Virus record (IMG/VR): IMGVR_UViG_2541047861_000012
Location: 1-19,841 of that record
Source: a virus
Lineage: Duplodnaviria; Heunggongvirae; Uroviricota; Caudoviricetes
Direction: 5' to 3' (one strand)
Length of the DNA: 19,841 bases
The translations under genes were made by a program, and so were the position numbers. This document shows, piece after piece, positions 1 to 10,717 of the stretch. How positions within the stretch are numbered: position 1 is the stretch's first letter; each line of letters opens with the position of its first letter. The notes below the pieces were generated by a model, which was not told where the DNA came from, did not search any database, and saw only the letters and a list, made by a program, of their open reading frames with translations.

Positions 1-516
1 ATGAAATTTAAAAAATGTCTTCTGCCTGTGGCAATGTTAGCGTCATTCACTCTGGCAGGATGCCAGTCAAATGCTGATGATCATGCCGCCGATGTTTATC
101 AAACCGATCAACTGAATACCAAACAAGAAACTAAAACCGTTAATATTATTTCCATTCTTCCCGCAAAAGTTGCCGTAGACAACGCCCAAAATAAACGGAA
201 CGCACAAGCCTTCGGCGCGCTTATTGGCGCTGTCGCTGGCGGTGTTATCGGCCACAACGTCGGGTCTGGCAGCAATTCCGGAACGACGGCAGGTGCAGTT
301 GGCGGCGGAGCTGTAGGCGCGGCAGCGGGTTCTATGGTGAATGATAAAACCTTAGTGGAAGGTGTTTCTTTAACATATAAGGAAGGCACCAAAGTGTATA
401 CCTCCACCCAGGTGGGTAAAGAGTGCCAGTTTACGACAGGTTTAGCCGTTGTTATTACCACGACGTATAACGAAACGCGTATTCAGCCAAATACCAAATG
501 TCCTGAAAAGAGCTAA
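1..516 (+). CDS. outer-membrane lipoprotein with glycine-zipper domain (SlyB/YcfJ-like)
   Basis: ATG at window position 1; lipoprotein signal peptide MKFKKCLLPVAMLASFTLAGC with lipobox LAGC; Gly/Ala-rich stretch GALIGAVAGGVIGHNVGSG...GAVGGGAVGAAAG typical of glycine-zipper lipoproteins; stop 514-516. Family call from motif recall only. Confidence 0.7.
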   Translation: MKFKKCLLPVAMLASFTLAGCQSNADDHAADVYQTDQLNTKQETKTVNIISILPAKVAVDNAQNKRNAQAFGALIGAVAGGVIGHNVGSGSNSGTTAGAVGGGAVGAAAGSMVNDKTLVEGVSLTYKEGTKVYTSTQVGKECQFTTGLAVVITTTYNETRIQPNTKCPEKS

Positions 517-531
517 TAATCAGGAGGAGTC

Positions 532-1071
532 ATGAAGAAAGTTTTTCTTTGCGCCATCTTAGCCTCCTTAAGCTATCCGGCTATCGCCTCATCATTGCAG
601 GATCAACTCTCGGCTGTCGCAGAAGCGGAACAGCAAGGTAAAAATGAAGAGCAAAGGCAGCATGACGAATGGGTCGCGGAGCGCAACAGGGAAATCCAGC
701 AAGAGAAGCAACGTCGCGCAAACGCCCAGGCCGCGGCTAATAAAAGAGCGGCAACGGCAGCAGCGAATAAGAAAGCTCGTCAGGATAAACTGGACGCCGA
801 AGCCACTGCGGACAAAAAACGCGATCAAAGTTATGAAGATGAGCTACGTAGCTTAGAGATTCAGAAACAAAAACTGGCGCTGGCGAAAGAAGAAGCCCGC
901 GTCAAGCGCGAAAACGAATTTATCGATCAGGAACTGAAGCACAAAGCTGCGCAAACCGATGTGGTGCAATCTGAAGCTGACGCAAACAGAAATATGACTG
1001 AAGGCGGTCGCGATCTGATGAAAAGCGTGGGTAAAGCAGAAGAGAATAAATCAGATAGCTGGTTTAACTAA
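532..1071 (+). CDS. secreted/periplasmic coiled-coil protein of unknown function
   Basis: AGGAGG Shine-Dalgarno at 522-527 just upstream of ATG 532; signal peptide MKKVFLCAILASLSYPAIASS; remainder Lys/Glu/Ala/Gln-rich and coiled-coil-like; followed by terminator 1110-1144. Confidence 0.65.
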   Translation: MKKVFLCAILASLSYPAIASSLQDQLSAVAEAEQQGKNEEQRQHDEWVAERNREIQQEKQRRANAQAAANKRAATAAANKKARQDKLDAEATADKKRDQSYEDELRSLEIQKQKLALAKEEARVKRENEFIDQELKHKAAQTDVVQSEADANRNMTEGGRDLMKSVGKAEENKSDSWFN

Positions 1072-1109
1072 ACGATGTTAGTAACTTCAAACCTATAATT
1101 CTTTAGGAT

Positions 1110-1144
1110 AAAAAAACCCTCTGTAGTAACAGAGGGTTTTGTTC
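1110..1144. terminator. bidirectional rho-independent terminator
   Basis: 8-bp stem CCCTCTGT (1117-1124) / ACAGAGGG (1129-1136), 4-nt loop, flanked by A7 (1110-1116) and TTTTGTT (1137-1143). This gives a U-tract on both strands, between convergent gene 532-1071 (+) and the lysis operon ending at 1290 (-). Confidence 0.65.
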
Positions 1145-1289
1145 ATTCATAGTGCAGGGTCAAATCATTCCCACTCAATTATTTACGATAACCATAACCA
1201 ATTGAGTGATAACATTTTTCCAAAGATGAATTTTTCCCATACCGTTTTATATACCGTCACCGGAAATCAGTACCATGAAAAATGCCATG

Positions 1290-1772
1290 CTATCTGGTCA
1301 GGGTGTCGTACTGTTTTTCGCAGACTCTTCCGGCTTCGGCTGCCCGGTCAGCATACTCTGCCAGTTGTCTGTTTCTCTCGAGAGATTTGCTGAGCACGTC
1401 GGCAAGCAAAACTCCGGTGTCTGCGGCTGACGACCCAGCGCCGACAATGGCGTTATAGTGCCTGAGCTGCTCACGGATGGCAACGAGCTGTTGCTGCAAC
1501 CGGCCAGCGCGAGCGGCAGCATCAAGAGCATCATTGCGCGCCTGGTCGATCCTCTGCTGCGATTCACGTTCATTGATCGCTTTCTCCTGTTCGTAGTGCT
1601 GACGAACTCTCTCATCTTCAGTTTTGCGGTCTTCTTTCGCCTGAGCATACCCGGCGTCGTACTGACGACTGCCGTGCACATTCCAGGCAACAACTCCTGA
1701 TGTGGCAAGAACAGCAAGCATCGCCACGATAATCAAATGTTTCCAGTATGCTTTTACGAATGCCCAGATCAT
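1290..1772 (-). CDS. i-spanin (Rz-like inner-membrane spanin subunit)
   Basis: Start ATG overlaps endolysin stop (ATGA, 1769-1772); N-terminal TM helix [18 protein letters not shown] then charged coiled-coil periplasmic domain; contains an embedded +1-frame lipoprotein ORF; sits directly after the endolysin. Confidence 0.75.
1298..1534 (-). CDS. o-spanin (Rz1-like outer-membrane lipoprotein) embedded in +1 frame of the i-spanin gene
   Basis: Internal ATG-ATG (1534-1529) within ORF 1298-1717 gives about 78 aa [17 protein letters not shown]... with lipobox LALAGC; Pro/Ser/Thr-rich mature part with Cys residues; fully inside the Rz-like gene (stops at 1298-1300 versus 1290-1292). Exact start uncertain. 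Confidence 0.6.
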   Translation of the reverse strand: MMLLMLPLALAGCSNSSLPSVSSSGTITPLSALGRQPQTPEFCLPTCSANLSRETDNWQSMLTGQPKPEESAKNSTTP

Positions 1773-3368: not shown

Positions 3369-3395
3369 CCCGCAAAATATTGCGGGCTTTTTTTT
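3369..3395 (+). terminator. rho-independent terminator oriented for plus-strand transcription
   Basis: 7-bp stem CCCGCAA (3369-3375) / TTGCGGG (3380-3386), loop AATA, then C plus T8 (3388-3395). The minus-strand RNA would have no U-tract after the hairpin (reads UAUCAAAAACGG). Confidence 0.5.
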
Positions 3396-6300
3396 AACGT
3401 TCTTCCAGAGACTGAATCCGCTCTTTTATCTTATCCATTTCTCTGCGCTGCCATGCTGCCTCGATATAGAATAAGAGATCAGGTCTGACCCCCCATCTAG
3501 ATCCTGCTGGCGTTATTTCAACGCGCTCAATGATGTCTTCCATTACCATCACTGGATTATCATCCTCATCAACAATGATGCTCCCGTCATTATCAGTCAG
3601 CTGTATTTCCCTTTGGCCAGTAATGACGTCATCATATACTGCGGGATAATCGTCATAGCAAAGAAAGGCATAGCGGCATGTTGTGCTTTCTTCTTCCATG
3701 AGTCCGTGAGAAATAAGAACATCACGAAGTTGCTGCGCGATTACACCATGATGTATCCTCGCCCCTTCTTCTCCCTTTATAGCGACAGCGTTCAGCCATT
3801 TATAAGCGATATACCTGACGTCACCCCAGGCATCCAGCAATGCTTCGTCAGGAGAGACCGGCTCTGTCTTTAATGTTCCGTCACTGGTAACCACAGGATT
3901 GGAGCCAAGATAAACTGTCGAGAACCTGTTTCCCGGACCACCAAGAGCATTTACATTATCAAGATAAGGTTTAACATCTCCGTTCTCAAAAAGATGTTCG
4001 AGTGCGTTATATACCGCGCGACGTGGAGTACTGCTTCCGGAACCATGCAACGTTATCATTGCACCATCTGCTGAAGACGTTGTTTCACCGCCGCTAACGA
4101 TTAATCTCTGAGCGGTAACATCATCAGACGGTACTTTCTTCGCAATAATGGCGTAATTGCCCTCCAGTTTGACTTCCGCGCGAACTTGTCCTGATGTACC
4201 TGCATGGACAGTCAGTGACTGGACGGCAACATCATCTGTGAAATCAACGGGTACAGGAACCGTCCTCACGCCGGACGTCGACATAAAAGTAGGAAGCGTT
4301 CTGTTAGGAGTGGCTCCGTAGACAAAATCCCTTGAAACAAATTCTTCCTGTTTAATTTTCACCCTGAAACAATACAAATCAGCCGGGTGACCATCGTGAA
4401 CATAAGGATATTTTCTGTTGTTATCCCCTATGCTCCATGGGTTTAGAAAGTCTTCCCCACCGAAAATGTAGTACAGCCAGTTGTCTTTGATACAAACTGA
4501 ACCAACACCAACCGCAGAGTTAACTATTCCGCCCTGATAAATCTGATCAGTAACATTAACCCACTCTACATTATCCAGACTCCACTCATTGACGTTAACT
4601 CTGGTCATAAATGTTCTTGGATAATTTCCTGCATAACGGTTATCAGGTTCTCCTCCTTCCCACTCACCAAATGCGCGCTCACTGCCAAAAATAATCAGCT
4701 CATCGCCAACTTTGGCAAAAGGAAGGTTTGAGTGATGAACATTATTTGGGAAGCGAAGAGAATTCCATGATGCACCTAAATCAGAGCTTCTGTGCAATGA
4801 ACTACCGGGTTGAGTACTTAATGTCCCCCTGGTCGTCAGATACAGAATGCCATCATAATATTTTACACATGGCTCAGATGCATTCGCCTCATATTCTGCA
4901 GGTATGCGTCTGCGAACAAAGCTACCAGGAGAACCGAAAGCATCAGAGAAATAGAGTATCCCAAGCTCGCGTGGACCAATATCACCATTATGGTAGCCAA
5001 CAGCAAAACTGTTATCGCTAATCGTCGCAAAACTGTGAATCTCAGTAACAGGAGTGCTTCCGTCAACAAAAGAAGAAATAGTTCCAAGACTGGTTTTTCT
5101 CCATGGTGACGAGTGAAATGATGTACCAAAACTCCAGTATCTACCCTCGTTATTCTGATCCACATCCTGAGTATTTTGCGTCGTAACTGTAAAAGTATTT
5201 TTATCAATAACAGTAGTCACCGTCATATTCCCGGTAACACCTGTAACACCAGAGTTTGAGAAGTTGACAAAATCACCAGCAAATAATCCGTGATCAGTAA
5301 TGCGAATATAAGCGACTTGCTGATTTGCTGCTTTCGTTATACCACCATAAACGCGAAGGCTGCGACTCATTGGACGATCCCACAACTCTGCAACCTGCAG
5401 TTTATTTCCGCGCACGGTCCGCGTCTCAATTACAGCAAAAAGGCGATTTCTGACAACCCCCATACTCATGCAGTGATAGTTAACTGTGGGATAGTTTTCA
5501 TGTAAATCTGTAAGCCATTCCGGCGTTGTCCAGGTCTTCCCGTCATCTCCTGAGCGAACCCATGCAACATGGAGGTTATTTACACCATGGCGGTCTCCAG
5601 CCATAAAAGGCGCATAGATGACATTGTCATATACAAACGTTTTATCCTGCGTCCAGGCGTTGTACCACGGTGTATCTGTAATTTTAAATAACTCTCCCTG
5701 GATAAAATCTTCAGAAGCATAAAAAAGAGGCTGACCCGGTATTCTCTCAAATAAAAAACGAGCATTTTTAAATCGGCTGACATCCGGAAGAGTTGATACT
5801 TTAAAAGTAAGCCCTAATCCGTCAATTTTATAACCTGGAGATGAGGCTTCAAGGCACGCGCTTATTGCAGTGGAATCGTCATTTATACCATCACCAACAG
5901 CTCCAAAATCTTTGGGGCTAATAGCATCACGCATTTTATCCTGGAACGTTCGGTATACTGCCCCAGAACCATACTGAATAAACCAACCAAAACCACCAAC
6001 AACCCCGGCGATTGCAGCATCGACATAATTACGCATTGAGCGATTATTTACAGCGTCCTGTTCAAGTGATGGATCTGCAAGGTTAGAAATTCTGTTTTGC
6101 TTTGCATCGTAATATTTTGCAAGCAAAGATGGTTTCATCAATGCACGTCTGAACCATCCAAAACATTGCTGGATCAGCATCGTCAGGTAGTCAAAGGCAT
6201 CTTCATGCACTTCGGGGAAAAACTTTCCCTGATTGCGAAGGTCTGTCTCCTGCACTACATCAAGCACACGATCTATCGTAATTCTCCATCCAGTAGCAAG

Positions 6301-6513
6301 CGGCGACGGAAGAACCACAGAACCGCCACTATAAGTGCCCGCCCCAGTTACCGTATAACCGGTATCCAGAACCAATTCTGTTACGTTCCCGTTCAGGTCA
6401 GACACCTGAACAACCAGGTCGGATTTTCTGAAAATTCGAAAAGTATACGGAAACGATGTCGTAACGCCGTTACCGGTGTATTCGTTGTGGTCAACTTCGG
6501 TTGAGACCGTCAT
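3394..6513 (-). CDS. tailspike/tail fibre with depolymerase domain (T7 gp17-like N-terminal anchor, Asp-box sialidase-like region, C-terminal S74 intramolecular-chaperone domain)
   Basis: GGAG 7 nt upstream of ATG 6513; residues about 10-115 resemble the T7 tail-fibre N-terminal particle-binding domain; pectate-lyase-like motif DFGAVGDGINDDSTAISA (201-219); Asp boxes SGDDGKTW (321-328) and SSDLGASW (576-583); predicted autocleavage site VVTS/DG (877/878) followed by a chaperone-like C-terminus. Substrate not determinable by eye. Confidence 0.85.
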   Translation of the reverse strand: MTVSTEVDHNEYTGNGVTTSFPYTFRIFRKSDLVVQVSDLNGNVTELVLDTGYTVTGAGTYSGGSVVLPSPLATGWRITIDRVLDVVQETDLRNQGKFFPEVHEDAFDYLTMLIQQCFGWFRRALMKPSLLAKYYDAKQNRISNLADPSLEQDAVNNRSMRNYVDAAIAGVVGGFGWFIQYGSGAVYRTFQDKMRDAISPKDFGAVGDGINDDSTAISACLEASSPGYKIDGLGLTFKVSTLPDVSRFKNARFLFERIPGQPLFYASEDFIQGELFKITDTPWYNAWTQDKTFVYDNVIYAPFMAGDRHGVNNLHVAWVRSGDDGKTWTTPEWLTDLHENYPTVNYHCMSMGVVRNRLFAVIETRTVRGNKLQVAELWDRPMSRSLRVYGGITKAANQQVAYIRITDHGLFAGDFVNFSNSGVTGVTGNMTVTTVIDKNTFTVTTQNTQDVDQNNEGRYWSFGTSFHSSPWRKTSLGTISSFVDGSTPVTEIHSFATISDNSFAVGYHNGDIGPRELGILYFSDAFGSPGSFVRRRIPAEYEANASEPCVKYYDGILYLTTRGTLSTQPGSSLHRSSDLGASWNSLRFPNNVHHSNLPFAKVGDELIIFGSERAFGEWEGGEPDNRYAGNYPRTFMTRVNVNEWSLDNVEWVNVTDQIYQGGIVNSAVGVGSVCIKDNWLYYIFGGEDFLNPWSIGDNNRKYPYVHDGHPADLYCFRVKIKQEEFVSRDFVYGATPNRTLPTFMSTSGVRTVPVPVDFTDDVAVQSLTVHAGTSGQVRAEVKLEGNYAIIAKKVPSDDVTAQRLIVSGGETTSSADGAMITLHGSGSSTPRRAVYNALEHLFENGDVKPYLDNVNALGGPGNRFSTVYLGSNPVVTSDGTLKTEPVSPDEALLDAWGDVRYIAYKWLNAVAIKGEEGARIHHGVIAQQLRDVLISHGLMEEESTTCRYAFLCYDDYPAVYDDVITGQREIQLTDNDGSIIVDEDDNPVMVMEDIIERVEITPAGSRWGVRPDLLFYIEAAWQRREMDKIKERIQSLEER

Positions 6514-6650
6514 GTTAAATCTCCAGATAGTCGCAGCACCCGTTGCGCCGCATATCTGGTCATTCTATTACCTAAAAAACCACATATGGATAGAAAGACT
6601 GTGAATACGAATAGATATTACCTTTCGGGTAATTTGCAAAACGTGCTGGA

Positions 6651-6687
6651 TAGCAAACAAATTATTTGCTACTGTATAAATATACAG
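6651..6687. promoter_or_regulatory. operator-like tandem inverted repeats upstream of gene 6710-6967
   Basis: TAGCAAA-N7-TTTGCTA (6651-6671) immediately followed by CTGTATA-AA-TATACAG (6672-6687, contains TATAAAT), ending about 10 nt before the GGAG of gene 6710. Confidence 0.3.
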
Positions 6688-6709
6688 TTATTGCATGGAG
6701 AATATTAAG

Positions 6710-6967
6710 ATGCAGCAGTATCACTATCCACTGGAAGACGGATTTACCGAAAGGATTCACACGCCGGGAGGCGTCAGGTCACTGGTGGAGGGATCGCACT
6801 TGATGAAATTACTCCGGGATCTCGATAAGGATGGATTTAATGTCGATGGCCCACTTGCCGAACTGACTGCACTGATTAACTACGTCACCAGCTCACAGAT
6901 GTCTATGCAGGATCTGCAAACACATCTCGACTATTGTGCCGAACAATTACGAAAACAAACCAGATAA
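6710..6967 (+). CDS. small stand-alone homologue of the antirepressor C-terminal module
   Basis: GGAG at 6697-6700, 9 nt before ATG 6710 (the in-frame ATG at 6695 has no SD); 85 aa; SHLMKLLRDLDKDGFNVDGPLAELTALINYV...MQDLQTHLDY aligns with the shared C-terminus of 7283-7978 and 8987-9925 (SLLMNLLNQLQEDGHDVSGAAAELTTMFCYIV...LRDIQTHAEY). Confidence 0.55.
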   Translation: MQQYHYPLEDGFTERIHTPGGVRSLVEGSHLMKLLRDLDKDGFNVDGPLAELTALINYVTSSQMSMQDLQTHLDYCAEQLRKQTR

Positions 6968-6997
6968 GATTTGAAATTACCAATAGGAGTGCTTATA

Positions 6998-7014
6998 TTT
7001 ACCTTTGCGGTAAA
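6998..7014. promoter_or_regulatory. operator-like palindrome TTTACC-N5-GGTAAA (copy 1)
   Basis: TTTACC (6998-7003), TTTGC, GGTAAA (7009-7014), nested inside a longer inverted repeat GGAGTGC (6986-6992) / GCACTCC (7023-7029). Identical half-sites recur at 8151-8167. Confidence 0.3.
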
Positions 7015-7105
7015 TTTACATCGCACTCCTCTTGTGCCATAGTAATCGGGCACTGGCAAAATCCAGTGCCGGGATTGGCGTCCCGGATTACTAAAAGGCG
7101 CATTC

Positions 7106-7125
7106 ACCGCGCAAGCGGTTTTTTT
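7106..7125 (+). terminator. weak rho-independent terminator in the leader of the Bro-N antirepressor gene
   Basis: Short stem ACCGC (7106-7110) / GCGGT (7115-7119), loop GCAA, then a T-run to 7125; preceded by hairpins at 7049-7070 and 7069-7086 that share bases. Confidence 0.3.
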
Positions 7126-7282
7126 ATGCGTATAGCACGGCCACATTCGTATTATGGTGGGCTGTGTGGGGGCACCGAAAGGTGCGCCGGGTCCTTTTAG
7201 CCGGTTACGCCAACCCTGCACAGTTCACCACCAACCGATTGGCGTCGGTAGTGGTGATTAACCAGACTAAAAGGTAACCACT

Positions 7283-7978
7283 ATGACAGCTACAAAAAGC
7301 ACGTCCATTTTTTCTTTCGAATCCCAAGCCGATATACGGGTAATCGTCATTAATGGTGAGCCATGGTTTATCGCTTCAGATGTTTGTCGGGCTATAGGCA
7401 TAGCAAACCATCGAGATGCTGTTCGAAAACTTGATGATGATGAGAAGGGCGTCGCTTCAACCGACACCCCTGGCGGTGAGCAAGAATCGATCATCATCTC
7501 CGAGTCAGGCCTCTACACACTGATCCTCCGCTGCCGCGACGCAGTGACACCAGGCACTATCCCCTACCGCTTTCGTAAATGGGTTACAGGTGAGGTTCTT
7601 CCTCAGATCCGCCGCACCGGAAGTTACATTAAAAACTCGCTCCCGCAGGAAGAACGCATAAAGATGGTTGCCGACCAGGTAGCCAACGCCACAGCATCAG
7701 CAGTGATGCAGGCAATGAAGATAGAGAACAAAACCTACAGTGCCCCGCTGAAGCCCGGCTACCGCAGTTTGATTCACTCGCCGTCTGGTGTTCTCGGCCT
7801 GACGGAGAACTCACTGCTGATGAATTTGCTGAACCAGTTACAGGAAGACGGGCATGACGTATCGGGCGCGGCGGCGGAACTGACCACCATGTTCTGCTAC
7901 ATCGTCGGTGTGAGTAAATGCCTGCGTGATATCCAGACTCACGCGGAGTACATCAACGACAAAGCAGGATTCTTCTGA
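7283..7978 (+). CDS. antirepressor-like protein (Bro-N N-terminal domain plus shared antirepressor C-terminal module)
   Basis: AAGG about 8 nt upstream of ATG 7283; Bro-N signature FESQADIRVIVINGEPWFIASDVCRAIG...ESGLYTLILRCRDAVTPGTIPYRFRKWVTGEVLPQIRRTG; last 77 residues identical to those of 8987-9925. Confidence 0.8.
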   Translation: MTATKSTSIFSFESQADIRVIVINGEPWFIASDVCRAIGIANHRDAVRKLDDDEKGVASTDTPGGEQESIIISESGLYTLILRCRDAVTPGTIPYRFRKWVTGEVLPQIRRTGSYIKNSLPQEERIKMVADQVANATASAVMQAMKIENKTYSAPLKPGYRSLIHSPSGVLGLTENSLLMNLLNQLQEDGHDVSGAAAELTTMFCYIVGVSKCLRDIQTHAEYINDKAGFF

Positions 7979-8000: not shown

Positions 8001-8150
8001 CCTTTAAATAATTCTGTACAGATTGCAGACTGGGGGTGAATAGCGTACTATTACCTCACGGGTGATCCATAGCGATTAGGCACCGATACAGGAGGAGCCC
8101 ACATGAGAAAATTTGACGAGTACGAAGGCGTTTAACATTCGGATAGTTCA

Positions 8151-8167
8151 TTTACCCTAATGGTAAA
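8151..8167. promoter_or_regulatory. operator-like palindrome TTTACC-N5-GGTAAA (copy 2), about 40 bp upstream of gene 8207-8842
   Basis: TTTACC (8151-8156), CTAAT, GGTAAA (8162-8167); TA-rich -10-like sequence TATATATTAT at 8187-8196; GAGG SD at 8197-8200. Confidence 0.35.
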
Positions 8168-8963: not shown

Positions 8964-9220
8964 CACGTCCCTGTGCCGCCGTTCTGTCAGAAGAACCCTG
9001 CCTTGTCGTTGATGTATTCCGCGTGCGTCTGGATATCACGCAGGCATTTGCTCACACCAACGATGTAGCAGAACATGGTGGTCAGCTCCGCCGCCGCGCC
9101 CGATACATCGTGCCCGTCTTCCTGTAACTGGTTCAGCAGATTCATCAGCAGTGAGTTCTCCGTCAGGCCGAGAACACCCGACGGCGAATGAATCAGACTG
9201 CGGTAGCCTGGCTTCAATGG
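8964..9220. repeat. inverted repeat copy B (3' end of gene 8987-9925 plus about 23 bp)
   Basis: Partner of 7745-8000; see copy A. Confidence 0.85.
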
Positions 9221-9925
9221 ATAACCATAACATTTTGTCTGTGTTTTAATTGCCTCACGAAGCGCATCTAACATCTTGACTGCCACTTCATCATTCTCTG
9301 ATGCAGATCCAGCAGGGAGATACTCCCCTTCAAGCGGAACCCGAGCAACAAGAGACAACGCTTCGGCAAATTGATCTTCACCAATTTCTTTGTACGAACA
9401 GCCAAAATGAGATTTCAGTGACGACCACATGGTGATCATCGCCTTAGCCTGTTTTTCTTTTGGCAGAGACTGACCGCGACTCATGACGAGTTGTTTAATG
9501 GCTTCCTGCTGTTCAGTTGTTATTTTACCCGGCAACGCCTTTTTAGCTTTGCGTGGGTTAACCACATGGCCTTTAGTCCAGTACTCGTAGAGCACATCGT
9601 CACACTCTTCCTGATACTGGATTACCTTGTCGCGGATTTCAGGGCGGACTTTGTTAGGGCTGATGCTGTTCAACCAAGCTGCCAATTTTCGTAAAGCCAT
9701 ACAAATCATGGCTTGCACCCCACCGGCAGAAGGTATGGTGATTTCCACCATACCCTTCGAGAAGCGTTGAGAAATCTTCTTATGTTGAGATTTCCAGTCT
9801 AGCCCCATTCCCTCAACGATAGGTTTCATTGGGGTATACGGTTCGCCGTTGTGATTGACAACATAAAGCTCTGCGCCGTGGAATGGCACGTTGATAGTAG
9901 ATACTGCTGTTGCTATACTCGTCAT
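8987..9925 (-). CDS. ant: antirepressor (Ant-like; AntA/P22-Ant-type N-terminal domain plus shared C-terminal module)
   Basis: 312 aa; follows the arc-like gene on the same strand after a 72-bp spacer; N-terminal region INVPFHGAELYVVNHNGEPYTPMKPIVEGMGLDWKSQHKKI resembles phage antirepressor N-terminal domains; C-terminal 77 aa identical to 7283-7978. The symbol is given by position and domain analogy to P22 ant. Confidence 0.8.
   Translation of the reverse strand: MTSIATAVSTINVPFHGAELYVVNHNGEPYTPMKPIVEGMGLDWKSQHKKISQRFSKGMVEITIPSAGGVQAMICMALRKLAAWLNSISPNKVRPEIRDKVIQYQEECDDVLYEYWTKGHVVNPRKAKKALPGKITTEQQEAIKQLVMSRGQSLPKEKQAKAMITMWSSLKSHFGCSYKEIGEDQFAEALSLVARVPLEGEYLPAGSASENDEVAVKMLDALREAIKTQTKCYGYPLKPGYRSLIHSPSGVLGLTENSLLMNLLNQLQEDGHDVSGAAAELTTMFCYIVGVSKCLRDIQTHAEYINDKAGFF
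9891..9919 (+). promoter_or_regulatory. candidate sigma70 promoter for an antisense (sar-like) RNA
   Basis: -35 TTGATA (9891-9896), 17-bp spacer, -10 TATACT (9914-9919); predicted start near 9926, i.e. opposite the ant start codon (9923-9925). Confidence 0.4.
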
Positions 9926-9999
9926 GTCGTTAATTCCTATACGTAGTTTTACGATACTGAAGCCCTGACGGTCTGGCCACCGTGGGGCTTCGCTGTTTT
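9926..9999 (+). ncRNA. predicted sar-like antisense RNA covering the arc-ant intercistronic region and ant ribosome-binding site
   Basis: Transcript predicted from promoter 9891-9919; ends at stem GAAGCCC (9959-9965) / GGGCTTC (9985-9991) with inner stem ACGG/CCGT, followed by GCUGUUUUA (9992-10000). About 70 nt, same size and topology as P22 sar RNA. Confidence 0.35.
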
Positions 10000-10165
10000 A
10001 TGCCACGCTATTCTTCTCACCAGTGAGTCCATACACTTTCCTCAGCTGATAGATAATCTCTGTATTGAACTTTCGGCATTCTTTTTCGCCATTTCTTTCA
10101 ATAGCTAACTTCACATCGTCCGGAAAACGAACTCGTCGTTGACACATCTCTTTTGCTTTTTGCAT
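9998..10165 (-). CDS. arc: Arc-like ribbon-helix-helix repressor
   Basis: AAGGAG SD 7 nt upstream of ATG 10165 (the longer ORF from 10186 lacks an SD); 55 aa MQKAKEMCQRRVRFPDDVKLAIERNGEKECRKFNTEIIYQLRKVY... matches the Arc/MetJ RHH pattern (compare P22 Arc RWPREV...NGRSVNSEIYQRV); first gene of an arc-ant operon. Confidence 0.8.
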   Translation of the reverse strand: MQKAKEMCQRRVRFPDDVKLAIERNGEKECRKFNTEIIYQLRKVYGLTGEKNSVA

Positions 10166-10179
10166 TTCATATCTCCTTA

Positions 10180-10248
10180 GCCCCACCGTGGGGCAAAATA
10201 ATTGTCACACCGTGCGTCATTGATGTCAAGCACACGGTGAGGCATACT
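10180..10248. promoter_or_regulatory. immI-type control region: overlapping divergent promoters with repeated CACCGTG/CACGGTG operator heptads
   Basis: Near-palindrome GCCCCACCGTGGGGC (10180-10194); CACCGTG at 10208-10214; CACGGTG at 10233-10239; a fourth copy GCCACCGTGGGGC at 9976-9988. Minus-strand promoter: -35 TTGACA (complement of 10224-10229), -10 GACAAT (complement of 10201-10206). Plus-strand promoter: -35 TTGATG (10220-10225), -10 CATACT (10243-10248). The heptad core matches the CCACGGTGG core I recall for the P22 Mnt operator. Confidence 0.55.
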
Positions 10249-10285
10249 TCAATCATTGCAAGTAACTCAATATTTGGTGAAGAAC

Positions 10286-10717
10286 ATGAGCAGAGAAGAT
10301 CCACAACTAAGGATCAGACTTCCCGTCGAAGTAAAAGAAAAAATAGAAATTTCTGCAAAAGCCAATAAGCGATCAATGAACGCTGAAATAGTACAACGTC
10401 TTGACACCAGCTTTCTGAAAGATATTCATGAAGATGACGTAATTTCTGCTTATGAAGCAAAAATCATTGCAAACAATGCACGACATGAAATATCAAATAT
10501 TATTTTCAAAAGAACCTTTAATGAAATTAATAAGAAAATAACACTTGGACATACAAGTTTTTATATAAACCTTAATGACCTTGAACTGGAATCACTTGCA
10601 GATAATGATTACCAGATCATCTTTGAAAAAACATTTAATAGGCTCAATGAACTAGGTTACATCATCTGTGAAAACTCATGGGATGCAGATGGTTTTGGAA
10701 TTGAAATACCTGAATAG
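10286..10717 (+). CDS. mnt: Mnt-like ribbon-helix-helix repressor with a novel C-terminal extension (chimeric)
   Basis: ATG 10286 preceded by GGTGA (the ORF track begins at TTG 10256); N-terminus MSREDPQLRIRLPVEVKEKIEISAKANKRSMNAEIVQRL closely parallels P22 Mnt (ARDDPHFNFRMPMEVREKLKFRAEANGRSMNSELLQIV); 143 aa versus 83 aa for Mnt; the extra acidic C-terminal part lies in the AT-rich block. Confidence 0.75.
   Translation: MSREDPQLRIRLPVEVKEKIEISAKANKRSMNAEIVQRLDTSFLKDIHEDDVISAYEAKIIANNARHEISNIIFKRTFNEINKKITLGHTSFYINLNDLELESLADNDYQIIFEKTFNRLNELGYIICENSWDADGFGIEIPE

What the first reader, a model, noticed from the sequence alone, without database searches (positions are those of the whole stretch)
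6968..7282. Highly structured 315-bp non-coding leader upstream of the Bro-N antirepressor gene
The spacer between the small module gene and the Bro-N gene contains at least five hairpins: 6986-7029 (nested, with a perfect 10-bp palindrome GTAAATTTAC at 7010-7019), 7049-7070, an alternative 7069-7086 that shares bases with the previous stem, a short terminator 7106-7125, and a GNRA-looped stem 7172-7185. Mutually exclusive stems placed before a terminator fit an attenuator or antitermination switch, or a small RNA, controlling the second antirepressor.
Basis: seen in the sequence. Interest (0 to 1): 0.45.

Follow-up and report, generated by a model that had tools for sequence, protein, structure and literature searches.

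The report
Known IsrK–C4 antirepressor control cassette
The structured 315-bp spacer is real, but it is an already described phage control cassette: a promoter/operator, the small RNA IsrK and the C4 antisense RNA, which together keep the downstream antirepressor gene silent in a prophage.

Summary
All five hairpins exist at the stated coordinates, and the 315 nt fold far better than shuffles (z = -7.1). They are parts of known elements, not one attenuator. Rfam matches, full length and above gathering score: isrK (RF01394) at 7050-7125 and C4 antisense RNA (RF01695) at 7150-7235. Hairpin 5 is the GNRA hairpin inside C4. Hairpin 1 lies upstream of the predicted start and contains TTACC-N5-GGTAA, a palindrome found 14 times in intergenic regions of the closest phage (ZX5), so it is probably a repressor operator. 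C4 segments a' (7207-7213) and b' (7193-7200) are exactly complementary to a1/b1 in IsrK and to a2/b2 before the Bro-N gene. b2 covers its Shine-Dalgarno. This three-way complementarity co-varies across 16 phage loci and reproduces the annotated P1 immI layout. The two "mutually exclusive" stems are adjacent hairpins that form together. Verdict: P1-type immI cassette, as in Gifsy-1 IsrK-AnrP and APSE, in a phiV10/ZX5-like E. coli prophage. Already known, low interest.

The parts
6971..6999 (+). Upstream sigma-70-like promoter (TTGAAA-17-TATATT); predicted start near 7006, inside the operator
   Evidence: Consensus scan, 10 of 12 matches. By eye, a promoter-like pair sits at the same position in the other Uetakevirus-type loci in the sequence dump. 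Function inferred.
6986..7029 (.).
   Evidence: z = -6.4. The outer arms occur only in close relatives: a perfect 18-bp-arm palindrome in phiV10 (L001), absent in Tyrion, KpST512 and Kp4865.
6999..7013 (.). Palindrome TTACCTTTGCGGTAA (TTACC-N5-GGTAA), putative prophage-repressor operator. It abuts the -10 of the upstream promoter and lies immediately upstream of the -35 of the isrK promoter (centre about -44).
   Evidence: 4 sites in the window against 0.38 expected. 14 sites in the ZX5 genome against 0.65 expected, all intergenic by my comparison of the positions with the gene table, including two on each side of the repressor gene. Present upstream of isrK only in Uetakevirus-type loci. The binding protein is inferred.
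7015..7043 (+). isrK promoter: TTTACA-17-CATAGT with an upstream TG; predicted +1 at about 7050
   Evidence: In all 16 other loci a -35/-10 pair ends about 7 nt before the first base of the isrK match.
7050..7125 (+). IsrK sRNA gene (equivalent to the P1 a1/b1 leader): hairpin 1 7050-7069, hairpin 2 7070-7085, single-stranded linker, terminator stem 7106-7119 plus U-run
   Evidence: Rfam RF01394, 77.9 bits (gathering score 50), model positions 1-77. c4-a1b1 RF03163 scores 45.1 bits at 7037-7089 (gathering score 46.7). 93.4% of cells paired and 8 pairs with changes on both sides across 16 loci.
7075..7081 (+). a1 site UUGGCGU in the loop and 3' arm of IsrK hairpin 2; complementary to a'
   Evidence: G7077 and G7080 correspond to Gifsy-1 G28 and G31, whose pairing with C162 and C159 was shown by compensatory mutations (PMC4825925).
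7091..7098 (+). b1 site CUAAAAGG in the IsrK linker; complementary to b'
7098..7131 (+). Helix that brackets the terminator (GCGCAU 7098-7103 with AUGCGU 7126-7131). It can form only in read-through transcripts.
   Evidence: Present in the MFE of 16 of 18 loci, including P1 and Gifsy-1, in several different sequence versions. In one search (10 distinct 3' strands) cognate duplexes have median -7.45 against -3.40 kcal/mol for non-cognate. Function unknown.
7150..7235 (+). C4 antisense RNA. Predicted mature form 7156-7232 (77 nt) by homology to annotated P1 c4. Closing stem 7155-7171 / 7214-7230; GNRA hairpin 7172-7185; hairpin 2 7186-7205.
   Evidence: Rfam RF01695, 77.7 bits (gathering score 45), model positions 1-87. 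98.3% of cells paired and 10 pairs with changes on both sides across the loci. Fold z = -4.7. P1 c4 coordinates.
7193..7200 (+). b' (CCUUUUAG) in the loop of C4 hairpin 2
   Evidence: There are 13 different b' loops in 16 loci. b'-b2 match length averages 8.1 nt for cognate pairs and 4.1 nt for non-cognate pairs.
7207..7213 (+). a' (ACGCCAA) in the single-stranded stretch between hairpin 2 and the closing stem
   Evidence: Six different 7-mer cores occur among the 17 sequences compared (window plus 16 loci), and each is matched exactly by that locus's own a1 and a2.
7239..7245 (+). a2 target (UUGGCGU) in the ant 5' UTR
   Evidence: Same position relative to C4 as annotated a2 in P1.
7251..7257 (+). 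Conserved GUGGUGA, complementary to the 3' strand of the C4 closing stem (7225-7231)
   Evidence: Seen in the sequences. It co-varies in L007, L014 and P1. Not quantified; role unknown.
7267..7274 (+). b2 target (CUAAAAGG) covering the Shine-Dalgarno AAAGG, 8 nt before ATG 7283
   Evidence: In all 16 loci b2 ends 7-16 nt before the ant start codon. The a2-b2 gap is 21 nt here and 22 nt in P1.
7154..7261 (+). 35-codon ORF positionally homologous to Gifsy-1 orf45 (it starts at the conserved AUG at the 5' end of C4). Probably not a conserved gene.
   Evidence: From the same AUG the ORF is 14-64 codons long, or stays open, in the other loci. No Pfam hit. In Gifsy-1 its stop overlaps the anrP ATG; here it stops 21 nt short.
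7283..7978 (+). Bro-N antirepressor gene, the regulated target
   Evidence: Pfam Bro-N, 2.3e-21. PHROG anti-repressor Ant. 100% identical to ZX5 ORF4, whose overexpression lowered lysogeny (PMC9782041).

Best explanation
The spacer is a compact P1-type immI cassette that controls the Bro-N antirepressor post-transcriptionally. Transcription starts at about 7050 from a sigma-70 promoter that adjoins a TTACC-N5-GGTAA operator. Most transcripts stop at the intrinsic terminator (7106-7125), giving the ~76-nt IsrK RNA. Read-through transcripts carry C4, which is excised as a ~77-nt RNA (7156-7232; the 5' end is made by RNase P in P1). C4 segment a' and loop b' pair with a2 and b2 in the ant leader. 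b2 covers the Shine-Dalgarno, so ribosomes cannot load and no antirepressor is made while the prophage is quiescent. IsrK carries the same two target sequences (a1, b1), so it competes for C4. In cis it locks the read-through RNA; in excess in trans it frees the ant ribosome-binding site. The antirepressor then inactivates the prophage repressor. Shown here: the identity of both RNAs, their structures, and the complementarities with their covariation. Taken from homologues: processing, translational repression, activation by IsrK and antirepressor activity. Inferred: that the operator binds the repressor, and that two promoters are used.
For: Both Rfam families match full length above gathering score. 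Both structures are supported by compensatory changes in 16 loci. The composite motif TTGGCGT-N(5-35)-CTAAAAGG occurs three times in the 19.8-kb window and nowhere else: a1b1, the reverse complement that is a'b', and a2b2; 0 are expected. The a and b specificities differ among phages, but each C4 matches its own IsrK and its own ant leader. b2 ends 7-16 nt before the ant ATG in every locus. The isrK-C4-ant order is conserved in 16 of 16 fetched loci and in Gifsy-1. The segment is found in about 306 phage records. The annotated P1 immI has the same order: operator, promoters, a1, b1, c4, a2, b2. P1's leader aligns end to end with the isrK model, 35 bits, E = 6e-6. In Gifsy-1, IsrK in trans raises anrP translation more than 100-fold, and G28:C162 and G31:C159, which are a1:a' at 7077:7211 and 7080:7208 here, were confirmed by compensatory mutants (PMC4825925). 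In P1, C4 is needed for full repression of ant (PMC8198154, citing Citron and Schuster 1990). The identical protein in ZX5 promotes lysis.
Against: There are no transcript or translation data for this phage. Here the MFE of the read-through RNA keeps the IsrK hairpins and C4 folded separately, rather than forming the a1:a' 'structure A' reported for Gifsy-1. In Gifsy-1, activation needs translation of orf45, whose stop overlaps the anrP start; in the window that ORF stops 21 nt upstream and is not conserved in the family, so the coupling step may differ. Co-expressing the C4-like RNA with IsrK in Gifsy-1 increased toxicity rather than reducing it, which a pure decoy model does not predict. The c4-a1b1 model scores 45.1 bits, just under its gathering score of 46.7.
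Confidence: 0.8

Rival explanations
1. P4-like termination control, an addition to the main model or an alternative to it. C4 pairs with a1/b1 on the nascent leader and enforces termination at the IsrK terminator, and possibly Rho-dependent termination after a2/b2. Regulation would then be mainly transcriptional. This is the closest real counterpart of the reader's attenuator idea.
For: a1/b1 lie just upstream of an intrinsic terminator. A conserved helix brackets that terminator in read-through RNA. The Gifsy-1 authors raise this possibility by analogy with P4 CI/seqA/seqC, and IsrK in trans raised anrP transcription 8-fold. C4 and c4-a1b1 share Rfam clan CL00128.
Against: In Gifsy-1 the translational effect (about 139-fold) far exceeds the transcriptional one (8-fold). 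b2 sits exactly on the Shine-Dalgarno in all loci, which points to translational occlusion. No alternative stem competing with the terminator hairpin was found.
Confidence: 0.25
2. One reading: a cis-acting attenuator or antitermination switch built from mutually exclusive stems 7049-7070 and 7069-7086 ahead of the terminator.
For: A terminator is present, and read-through is needed to express ant.
Against: The two stems overlap only at their terminal C residues. They coexist in the MFE and in the Rfam consensus, and both are kept across 16 loci, with 96% and 95% of cells paired. Neither competes with the terminator stem.
Confidence: 0.05
3. Gifsy-1-type coupling: Ant is translated only when ribosomes translate the small ORF that starts at the conserved AUG in C4 (7154-7261) and then re-initiate at 7283.
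For: The AUG is invariant in 16 loci. The ORF is open for 35 codons here. In Gifsy-1, orf45 translation is required for IsrK-dependent anrP expression.
Against: From the same AUG the ORF is 14-64 codons long, or stays open, in the other loci, and it often stops inside the b' loop. Here it ends 21 nt before the ATG instead of overlapping it. The invariant AUG bases lie at the 5' end of the C4 consensus, the U and G inside the covarying closing stem and next to the inferred RNase P site. No Pfam family matches.
Confidence: 0.2
4. Hairpin 1 (6986-7029) acts as an RNA terminator for the upstream 90-aa gene rather than, or as well as, a DNA operator.
For: It is a stable stem (-20.6 kcal/mol, z = -6.4) that starts 19 nt after the stop codon of gene 6695-6967. 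In phiV10 it is a perfect 18-bp-arm palindrome.
Against: No U-run follows it (TCTTGTG), and the terminator scan did not pick it up. The outer arms are not conserved in Tyrion or the Klebsiella phages, whereas the TTACC-N5-GGTAA core is. The same core recurs at 13 other intergenic sites in ZX5.
Confidence: 0.2
5. The region encodes protein: the 'Ash family protein' annotated in ZX5 (window 7164-7277), the 88-aa ORF 6934-7200, or the 96-aa ORF 6931-7221 on the minus strand.
For: These ORFs exist. One is annotated in GenBank record MW722083. The 35-aa ORF 7154-7261, in a different frame, hits phrog_20442.
Against: There are no Pfam or PHROG hits for these three ORFs. The substitutions are compensatory within stems. 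Frames are not conserved across the loci.
Confidence: 0.03

Closest known systems
Bacteriophage P1/P7 immI operon (Oc4 operator, P2c4/P1c4 promoters, a1 b1, c4, a2 b2, icd, ant1/2)
   Same: Same order of parts, as annotated in NC_005856. Same C4 family (68.8 bits in P1). A 7-nt a site and an 8-nt b site are each present twice, with an a2-b2 gap of 22 nt in P1 and 21 nt here. The predicted mature C4 is 77 nt in both. A repressor operator adjoins tandem promoters. The target is an antirepressor.
   Different: P1 has icd between b2 and ant, and b2 covers the icd ribosome-binding site; here b2 covers the SD of ant itself. P1's leader scores only 35 bits on the isrK model. The antirepressor here is a Bro-N protein, not Ant1/2. 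The operator is a TTACC-N5-GGTAA palindrome, whereas P1's is the annotated 17-bp monovalent C1 operator Oc4. The host phage is an integrated epsilon15-like podovirus, not a plasmid prophage.
Salmonella Gifsy-1 isrK-orf45(STnc1160)-anrP locus (Hershko-Shalev et al. 2016, PMC4825925)
   Same: Co-linear almost base for base: isrK scores 79.3 bits and C4 69 bits in Gifsy-1. The a specificity is the same (UUGGCGU). G28:C162 and G31:C159 map to 7077:7211 and 7080:7208. The promoter, the terminator and the downstream antirepressor all correspond.
   Different: The b specificity differs (CGGUGAU against CCUUUUAG). In Gifsy-1 the orf45 stop overlaps the anrP ATG, while here the homologous ORF stops 21 nt earlier. 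There is no isrJ or antQ context here. The Gifsy-1 paper does not describe the element as a P1-type C4 with a/b sites.
APSE phages of Hamiltonella (isrK + C4 + BRO-N gene; PMC7313666)
   Same: The same tandem of isrK and C4 lies directly upstream of a Bro-N gene, and a'/b' match that gene's upstream region.
   Different: Both the a and the b specificities differ (AUGCGAA, CCUGUUUAG). The host and the phage backbone differ. The APSE authors did not note that IsrK carries a1/b1.
Satellite phage P4 CI RNA with seqA/seqC
   Same: A processed small RNA is flanked by upstream and downstream complementary sites. The Gifsy-1 authors call the P4 seqA RNA a structural homologue of IsrK.
   Different: P4 CI acts by premature transcription termination of replication genes, not by occluding an antirepressor ribosome-binding site. 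Not tested here.
P22 immI sar RNA
   Same: A small antisense RNA controls an antirepressor. A copy is present in this same window at 9927-9994, beside a P22-type ant.
   Different: sar is a true cis-antisense transcript of the arc-ant junction, with an unrelated sequence and structure and no a/b target pairs.

Membership tests
IsrK sRNA (Rfam RF01394) | Covariance-model score at or above the gathering score, over the full model length | tested here: met
   77.9 bits against gathering score 50, model positions 1-77, at 7050-7125.
IsrK sRNA (Rfam RF01394) | Two 5' hairpins, a single-stranded linker and a Rho-independent terminator | tested here: met
   The MFE reproduces it. 93.4% of cells paired and 8 pairs with changes on both sides; slid controls give 33-46%. 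The terminator scan hits 7106-7119 plus T7.
IsrK sRNA (Rfam RF01394) | Own promoter, and a position upstream of a C4-like/orf45 segment and an antirepressor gene | tested here: met
   The promoter-like site 7015-7043 puts +1 at about 7050. The order isrK-C4-ant holds in 16 of 16 loci and in Gifsy-1.
IsrK sRNA (Rfam RF01394) | Partial terminator read-through; the short RNA activates antirepressor translation in trans; Hfq binding | not testable with these tools
   Known only from Gifsy-1 experiments.
C4 antisense RNA (Rfam RF01695; P1/P7 c4) | Covariance-model score at or above the gathering score, over the full model length | tested here: met
   77.7 bits against gathering score 45, model positions 1-87, at 7150-7235.
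C4 antisense RNA (Rfam RF01695; P1/P7 c4) | Long closing stem that encloses two hairpins | tested here: met
   98.3% of cells paired and 10 pairs with changes on both sides; slid controls give 36-50%. z = -4.7.
C4 antisense RNA (Rfam RF01695; P1/P7 c4) | a' and b' complementary to a2/b2 in the leader of the antirepressor operon, with b2 at a ribosome-binding site | tested here: met
   Exact 7-nt and 8-nt matches. b2 at 7267-7274 covers the SD 8 nt before ATG 7283. The pairing co-varies across loci.
C4 antisense RNA (Rfam RF01695; P1/P7 c4) | A second target pair, a1/b1, upstream of c4 | tested here: met
   a1 at 7075-7081 and b1 at 7091-7098.
C4 antisense RNA (Rfam RF01695; P1/P7 c4) | Excision from a precursor (5' end by RNase P) and repression of ant expression | not testable with these tools
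   A CCA follows the closing stem (7231-7233), and the predicted mature length is 77 nt, as in P1. This is sequence analogy only. The RNase P step is from my own knowledge of the P1 literature.
c4-a1b1 motif (Rfam RF03163) | Covariance-model score at or above the gathering score | tested here: not met
   45.1 bits against gathering score 46.7, full length 1-53 at 7037-7089, E = 1.9e-10. It falls marginally short, although the a1/b1 sites themselves are present.
Transcription attenuator (terminator/antiterminator switch) | Two mutually exclusive stems, one of which competes with the terminator hairpin | tested here: not met
   The proposed stems are adjacent and coexist. No competitor of 7106-7119 appears in the MFE or centroid structures.

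The most novel reading that the evidence does not exclude
In epsilon15/phiV10-like prophages the cassette may be wired directly to the main repressor. One TTACC-N5-GGTAA operator sits between two tandem promoters. Bound repressor would block the upstream promoter (start near 7006) while sitting at about -44 of the isrK promoter. It would therefore set the IsrK:C4 ratio and make Ant release depend on repressor occupancy. The same operator recurs at about 14 transcription units genome-wide, a P1-C1-like dispersed-operator immunity network that I did not find described for this genus. The conserved terminator-bracketing helix and the downstream GUGGUGA element may be processing or refolding signals that neither Rfam model includes.
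Probability: 0.25. Interest if true: 0.4.

Novelty: already known. Interest (0 to 1): 0.15.

Why it matters
It mainly corrects annotation. This cassette is present in 941 of 5,426 complete E. coli genomes and in hundreds of phage records, including most Stx-converting phages listed. Yet the annotations I inspected for this leader leave it blank, label only its terminator plus a protein-similarity note, or call it a protein such as "Ash family protein". Recognising it tells us that the Bro-N antirepressor of phiV10/ZX5-like prophages is under antisense-RNA control, with a phage-specific a/b "address". That bears on heteroimmunity and on cross-induction between co-resident prophages. It does not reveal a new kind of element.

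Tried and rejected
- tRNA/tmRNA scan of the window: no genes found.
- Coding readings of the spacer: the 88-aa, 96-aa and 37-aa ORFs have no Pfam or PHROG hits, and the 35-aa ORF has no Pfam hit and only phrog_20442. The orf45-like ORF is not conserved in length or frame.
- Rfam search at a permissive E-value over 6960-7300: nothing beyond isrK, C4 and c4-a1b1. In particular nothing matches 6960-7036 or 7236-7300.
- Other C4 targets in the 19.8-kb window: none. Only a1b1 and a2b2 match the a-N-b pattern.
- A separate promoter for C4 in the 24-nt gap 7126-7149: none predicted, and the gap has no structure of its own (z = +0.44).
- Whole-molecule duplexfold of C4 against IsrK or the UTR: uninformative, because it unfolds both partners. 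I used the segment duplexes and exact complement lengths instead.
- My automatic extraction of the 5' strand of the bracket helix failed in 4-5 loci. The MFE structures are the better evidence for that helix.
- Riedel et al. 1993 on P1 icd (PMC204598): not held in the library. The original Citron and Schuster paper was reached only through citing papers.
- The large protein-database, structure-prediction and metagenome tools were not needed and were not used.
Full report
**Observation**

- 6986-7029 is a nested inverted repeat containing GTAAATTTAC at 7010-7019.
- 7050-7069 and 7070-7085 are two hairpins.
- 7106-7119 followed by seven T is picked up by the terminator scan.
- 7172-7185 is GCACC-GAAA-GGTGC.

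Folded as RNA, the 315 nt give -132.3 kcal/mol against -96.6 +/- 5 for dinucleotide shuffles, z = -7.13. The separate pieces give z = -6.4 (inverted repeat), -2.4 (7050-7125) and -4.7 (7150-7235). The observation therefore stands. It is incomplete, because it misses a 17-bp stem (7155-7171 with 7214-7230) and a further hairpin (7186-7205). The claim that 7049-7070 and 7069-7086 are mutually exclusive is wrong: they share only their terminal C residues and form side by side.

**What it is**

A scan of the window against Rfam at gathering thresholds gives two full-length matches inside the spacer (repeated):
- isrK (RF01394) at 7050-7125, 77.9 bits against a threshold of 50.
- C4 antisense RNA (RF01695) at 7150-7235, 77.7 bits against 45.

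The c4-a1b1 motif (RF03163, "a1, b1 targets of C4") also aligns full length at 7037-7089, but at 45.1 bits it falls just below its threshold of 46.7. Hairpin 5 is the inner GNRA hairpin of C4.

A sigma-70-like promoter (TTTACA-17-CATAGT, preceded by TG) at 7015-7043 places the start at about 7050, the first base of the isrK match. In all 16 related loci a -35/-10 pair of different sequence ends about 7 nt before the isrK match.

**Context**

The window is one end of a prophage in E. coli.
- Bases 1-1071 encode the host proteins YfgH and YfgI.
- The rest is an epsilon15/phiV10-like podovirus (Uetakevirus). Region 6650-7330 is 98.7% identical to phage vB_EcoP_ZX5 and 96% identical to phiV10.
- The downstream gene (7283-7978) has a Bro-N domain. 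It is 100% identical to ZX5 ORF4, an antirepressor whose overexpression lowered the prophage titre from 10^9 to 10^6 (PMC9782041).

In GenBank the spacer is annotated only as "terminator" and "similar to hypothetical protein SF0880" in phiV10. In ZX5 it carries a 37-aa "ash family protein". In a RefSeq E. coli chromosome that holds an identical copy it has no annotation at all.

**Related sequences**

The isrK-C4 segment is found in about 306 phage records, including Stx-converting phages, APSE, Klebsiella, Enterobacter, Hafnia and Actinobacillus phages. It is also in 941 of 5,426 complete E. coli genomes. I fetched 16 loci. All have isrK and C4 in tandem, 20-27 nt apart, upstream of an antirepressor-type gene. 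Gifsy-1 has the same arrangement.

On alignments of these loci:
- The IsrK structure has 93.4% of cells paired, against 33-46% when partners are slid, and 8 pairs with changes on both sides.
- The C4 structure has 98.3% of cells paired, against 36-50%, and 10 such pairs, including all five pairs of the GNRA hairpin.

Both structures are therefore conserved by selection on pairing.

**The regulatory logic**

C4 has a single-stranded heptamer a' (ACGCCAA, 7207-7213) and a loop octamer b' (CCUUUUAG, 7193-7200).
- Their exact complements occur together in IsrK: a1 at 7075-7081 in the loop of hairpin 2, and b1 at 7091-7098 in the linker.
- They occur together again downstream of C4: a2 at 7239-7245 and b2 at 7267-7274.
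- They occur nowhere else in the 19.8 kb. The pattern search finds exactly these sites and expects 0.
- b2 contains the Shine-Dalgarno AAAGG, 8 nt before ATG 7283.

Across the window and 16 loci (17 sequences) there are six different a cores, and across 16 loci thirteen different b' loops. Each C4 matches its own a1 and a2 exactly over 7 nt. b' matches its own b2 over 6-9 nt (mean 8.1, against 4.1 for non-cognate pairs) and its own b1 over 4-9 nt (mean 7.0, against 3.8). b2 always ends 7-16 nt before the start codon.

This is the arrangement annotated in phage P1: C1 operator Oc4, promoters P2c4 and P1c4, a1, b1, c4 (77 nt), a2, then 22 nt, b2, icd, ant1. The gap is 21 nt here. By homology the mature C4 here is 7156-7232, also 77 nt. 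P1's own a1/b1 leader aligns end to end with the isrK model (35 bits, E = 6e-6, below threshold), including a terminator-like hairpin. So IsrK is the counterpart of the P1 immI leader.

**Mechanism**

From homologues:
- In P1, C4 is required for full repression of ant (PMC8198154, citing Citron and Schuster 1990).
- In Gifsy-1 most isrK transcripts terminate. Read-through gives a translationally silent isrK-orf45-anrP RNA, and a stable processed RNA (STnc1160) that depends on the isrK promoter.
- IsrK supplied in trans raises anrP translation about 139-fold.
- G28:C162 and G31:C159 were proven by compensatory mutations (PMC4825925). In window coordinates these are 7077:7211 and 7080:7208, which is a1:a'.

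I therefore propose the following. C4 excised from read-through transcripts occludes the ant ribosome-binding site through a'/a2 and b'/b2. IsrK, carrying the same two sites, competes for C4 in cis and in trans. When IsrK is in excess, Ant is made and inactivates the prophage repressor.

Shown here: the identities, structures, complementarity and covariation. Inferred from homologues: processing, repression, activation and antirepressor activity.

Points against a simple transfer of the Gifsy-1 model:
- The orf45 homologue (ATG 7154) stops 21 nt before the ant ATG instead of overlapping it. From the same AUG the ORF is 14-64 codons long, or stays open, in the other loci.
- The MFE of the read-through RNA here keeps IsrK and C4 folded separately.

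A P4-CI-like effect of C4 on termination at the IsrK terminator cannot be excluded.

**Hairpin 1**

It lies upstream of the predicted start.
- This motif occurs 4 times in the window, at 6618, 6999, 8051 (one mismatch) and 8152, with 0.38 expected.
- It occurs 14 times in the ZX5 genome, with 0.65 expected. Comparing the positions with the gene table, all are intergenic, with two on each side of the repressor gene and others before the integrase, the small terminase and other units.
- It is present upstream of isrK only in the Uetakevirus-type loci. The outer arms of hairpin 1 are not conserved beyond close relatives.

I read it as the operator of the prophage repressor. It lies between a second promoter-like site (6971-6999) and the isrK promoter, which parallels Oc4 with P2c4/P1c4 in P1. 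This is inference. A role as terminator of the upstream gene is not excluded, but there is no U-run.

The mosaic boundaries fit this reading. TL-2011b shares 6991-7330 at 99.1% identity but not the upstream gene. PAS61, EC.W1-9 and YDC107_2 share 6650 to about 6970 but not the cassette.

**Comparison and novelty**

The element passes the tested membership criteria for both IsrK and C4, and it works like the P1/P7 immI system.
- It differs from P1 in lacking icd, so b2 sits on the ant SD itself, and in the type of antirepressor and operator.
- It differs from Gifsy-1 in b specificity and in the orf45 stop position.
- The same isrK + C4 + Bro-N arrangement, with a'/b' matched to the Bro-N leader, has been described in APSE phages (PMC7313666; annotated in LR794149).
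- The C4 and c4-a1b1 motifs were catalogued in 2010 (PMC2864571).

The finding is therefore an already known kind of element in a lineage where the annotations I inspected do not label it as RNA. Interest is low.

Details I did not see described, all minor:
- a conserved helix bracketing the IsrK terminator in read-through RNA;
- a conserved GUGGUGA after a2, complementary to the 3' strand of the C4 stem;
- the dispersed TTACC-N5-GGTAA sites.

Noticed in passing
window 6618-6632, 6999-7013, 8051-8065, 8152-8166; L017 (ZX5), 14 sites: The palindrome TTACC-N5-GGTAA is strongly over-represented (4 against 0.38 expected in the window; 14 against 0.65 in ZX5). By comparison with the ZX5 gene table it lies only in intergenic regions, with two copies on each side of the ZX5 repressor gene. 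It is probably a genome-wide operator set, reminiscent of the dispersed C1 operators of P1. I found no description of it in the paper library.
   Followed up: partly
window 6695-6967 compared with 7283-7978: The small gene upstream of the leader (90 aa, phrog_450) is a free-standing paralogue of the C-terminal domain of the Bro-N antirepressor: 42% identity over 77 aa, E = 3e-16. It could modulate Ant or compete with it. Function unknown.
   Followed up: partly
window 8987-10717: There is a second, P22-type immI module: an ant gene with a P22_AR_N domain (8987-9925, minus strand), sar antisense RNA (9927-9994, Rfam 44.8 bits against gathering score 43), a small ORF in the arc position (9998-10186, minus strand; no Pfam hit) and an Arc-domain, Mnt-like gene (10256-10717). 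This prophage therefore carries two antirepressors, each with its own small-RNA control of a different family.
   Followed up: partly
window 7098-7103 with 7126-7131; the equivalent positions in L001-L016, L018 and L019: A 5-9 bp helix encloses the IsrK terminator. It can form only in read-through transcripts, and it is kept with different sequences in 16 of 18 loci, including P1 and Gifsy-1. It is not part of the Rfam isrK model. It may be a processing or refolding element.
   Followed up: partly
window 7251-7257 with 7225-7231: A conserved GGUGGUGA-like element after a2 is complementary to the 3' strand of the C4 closing stem. It co-varies in L007 and L014 (GGUGGCGA with UCGCCACC) and in P1. 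In the window it can alternatively pair with ACCACUA just before the AUG, which would place b2 in a hairpin loop.
   Followed up: partly
window 3394-6513 (minus strand): The tailspike is an endosialidase (End_beta_propel, E = 3.6e-232, and related domains). This suggests the prophage is specific for K1 (polysialic acid) capsule, unlike phiV10, which targets O157.
   Followed up: no
window 1-1290: The left end is host DNA: yfgH (glycine-zipper 2TM) and yfgI (DUF5384). The prophage junction therefore lies between about 1072 and 1290, next to the lysis genes. This fits the reported integration of ZX5 and phiV10 at the 3' end of guaA.
   Followed up: partly
L002 3514-3627; L011 788-1471; L008 625-1773; L005 1032-1199: Several GenBank records annotate protein-coding genes ('ash family protein', 'transcriptional regulator', 'hypothetical protein') that run straight across the isrK and/or C4 RNA genes. 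These are probably spurious calls.
   Followed up: partly
L006 1708-1791 (phage phi330): An sRNA-Xcc1 match (RF02221, 73.5 bits against gathering score 53) lies between two antirepressor genes, downstream of the isrK-C4 cassette. The APSE paper reports this sRNA in some APSE genomes as well.
   Followed up: no
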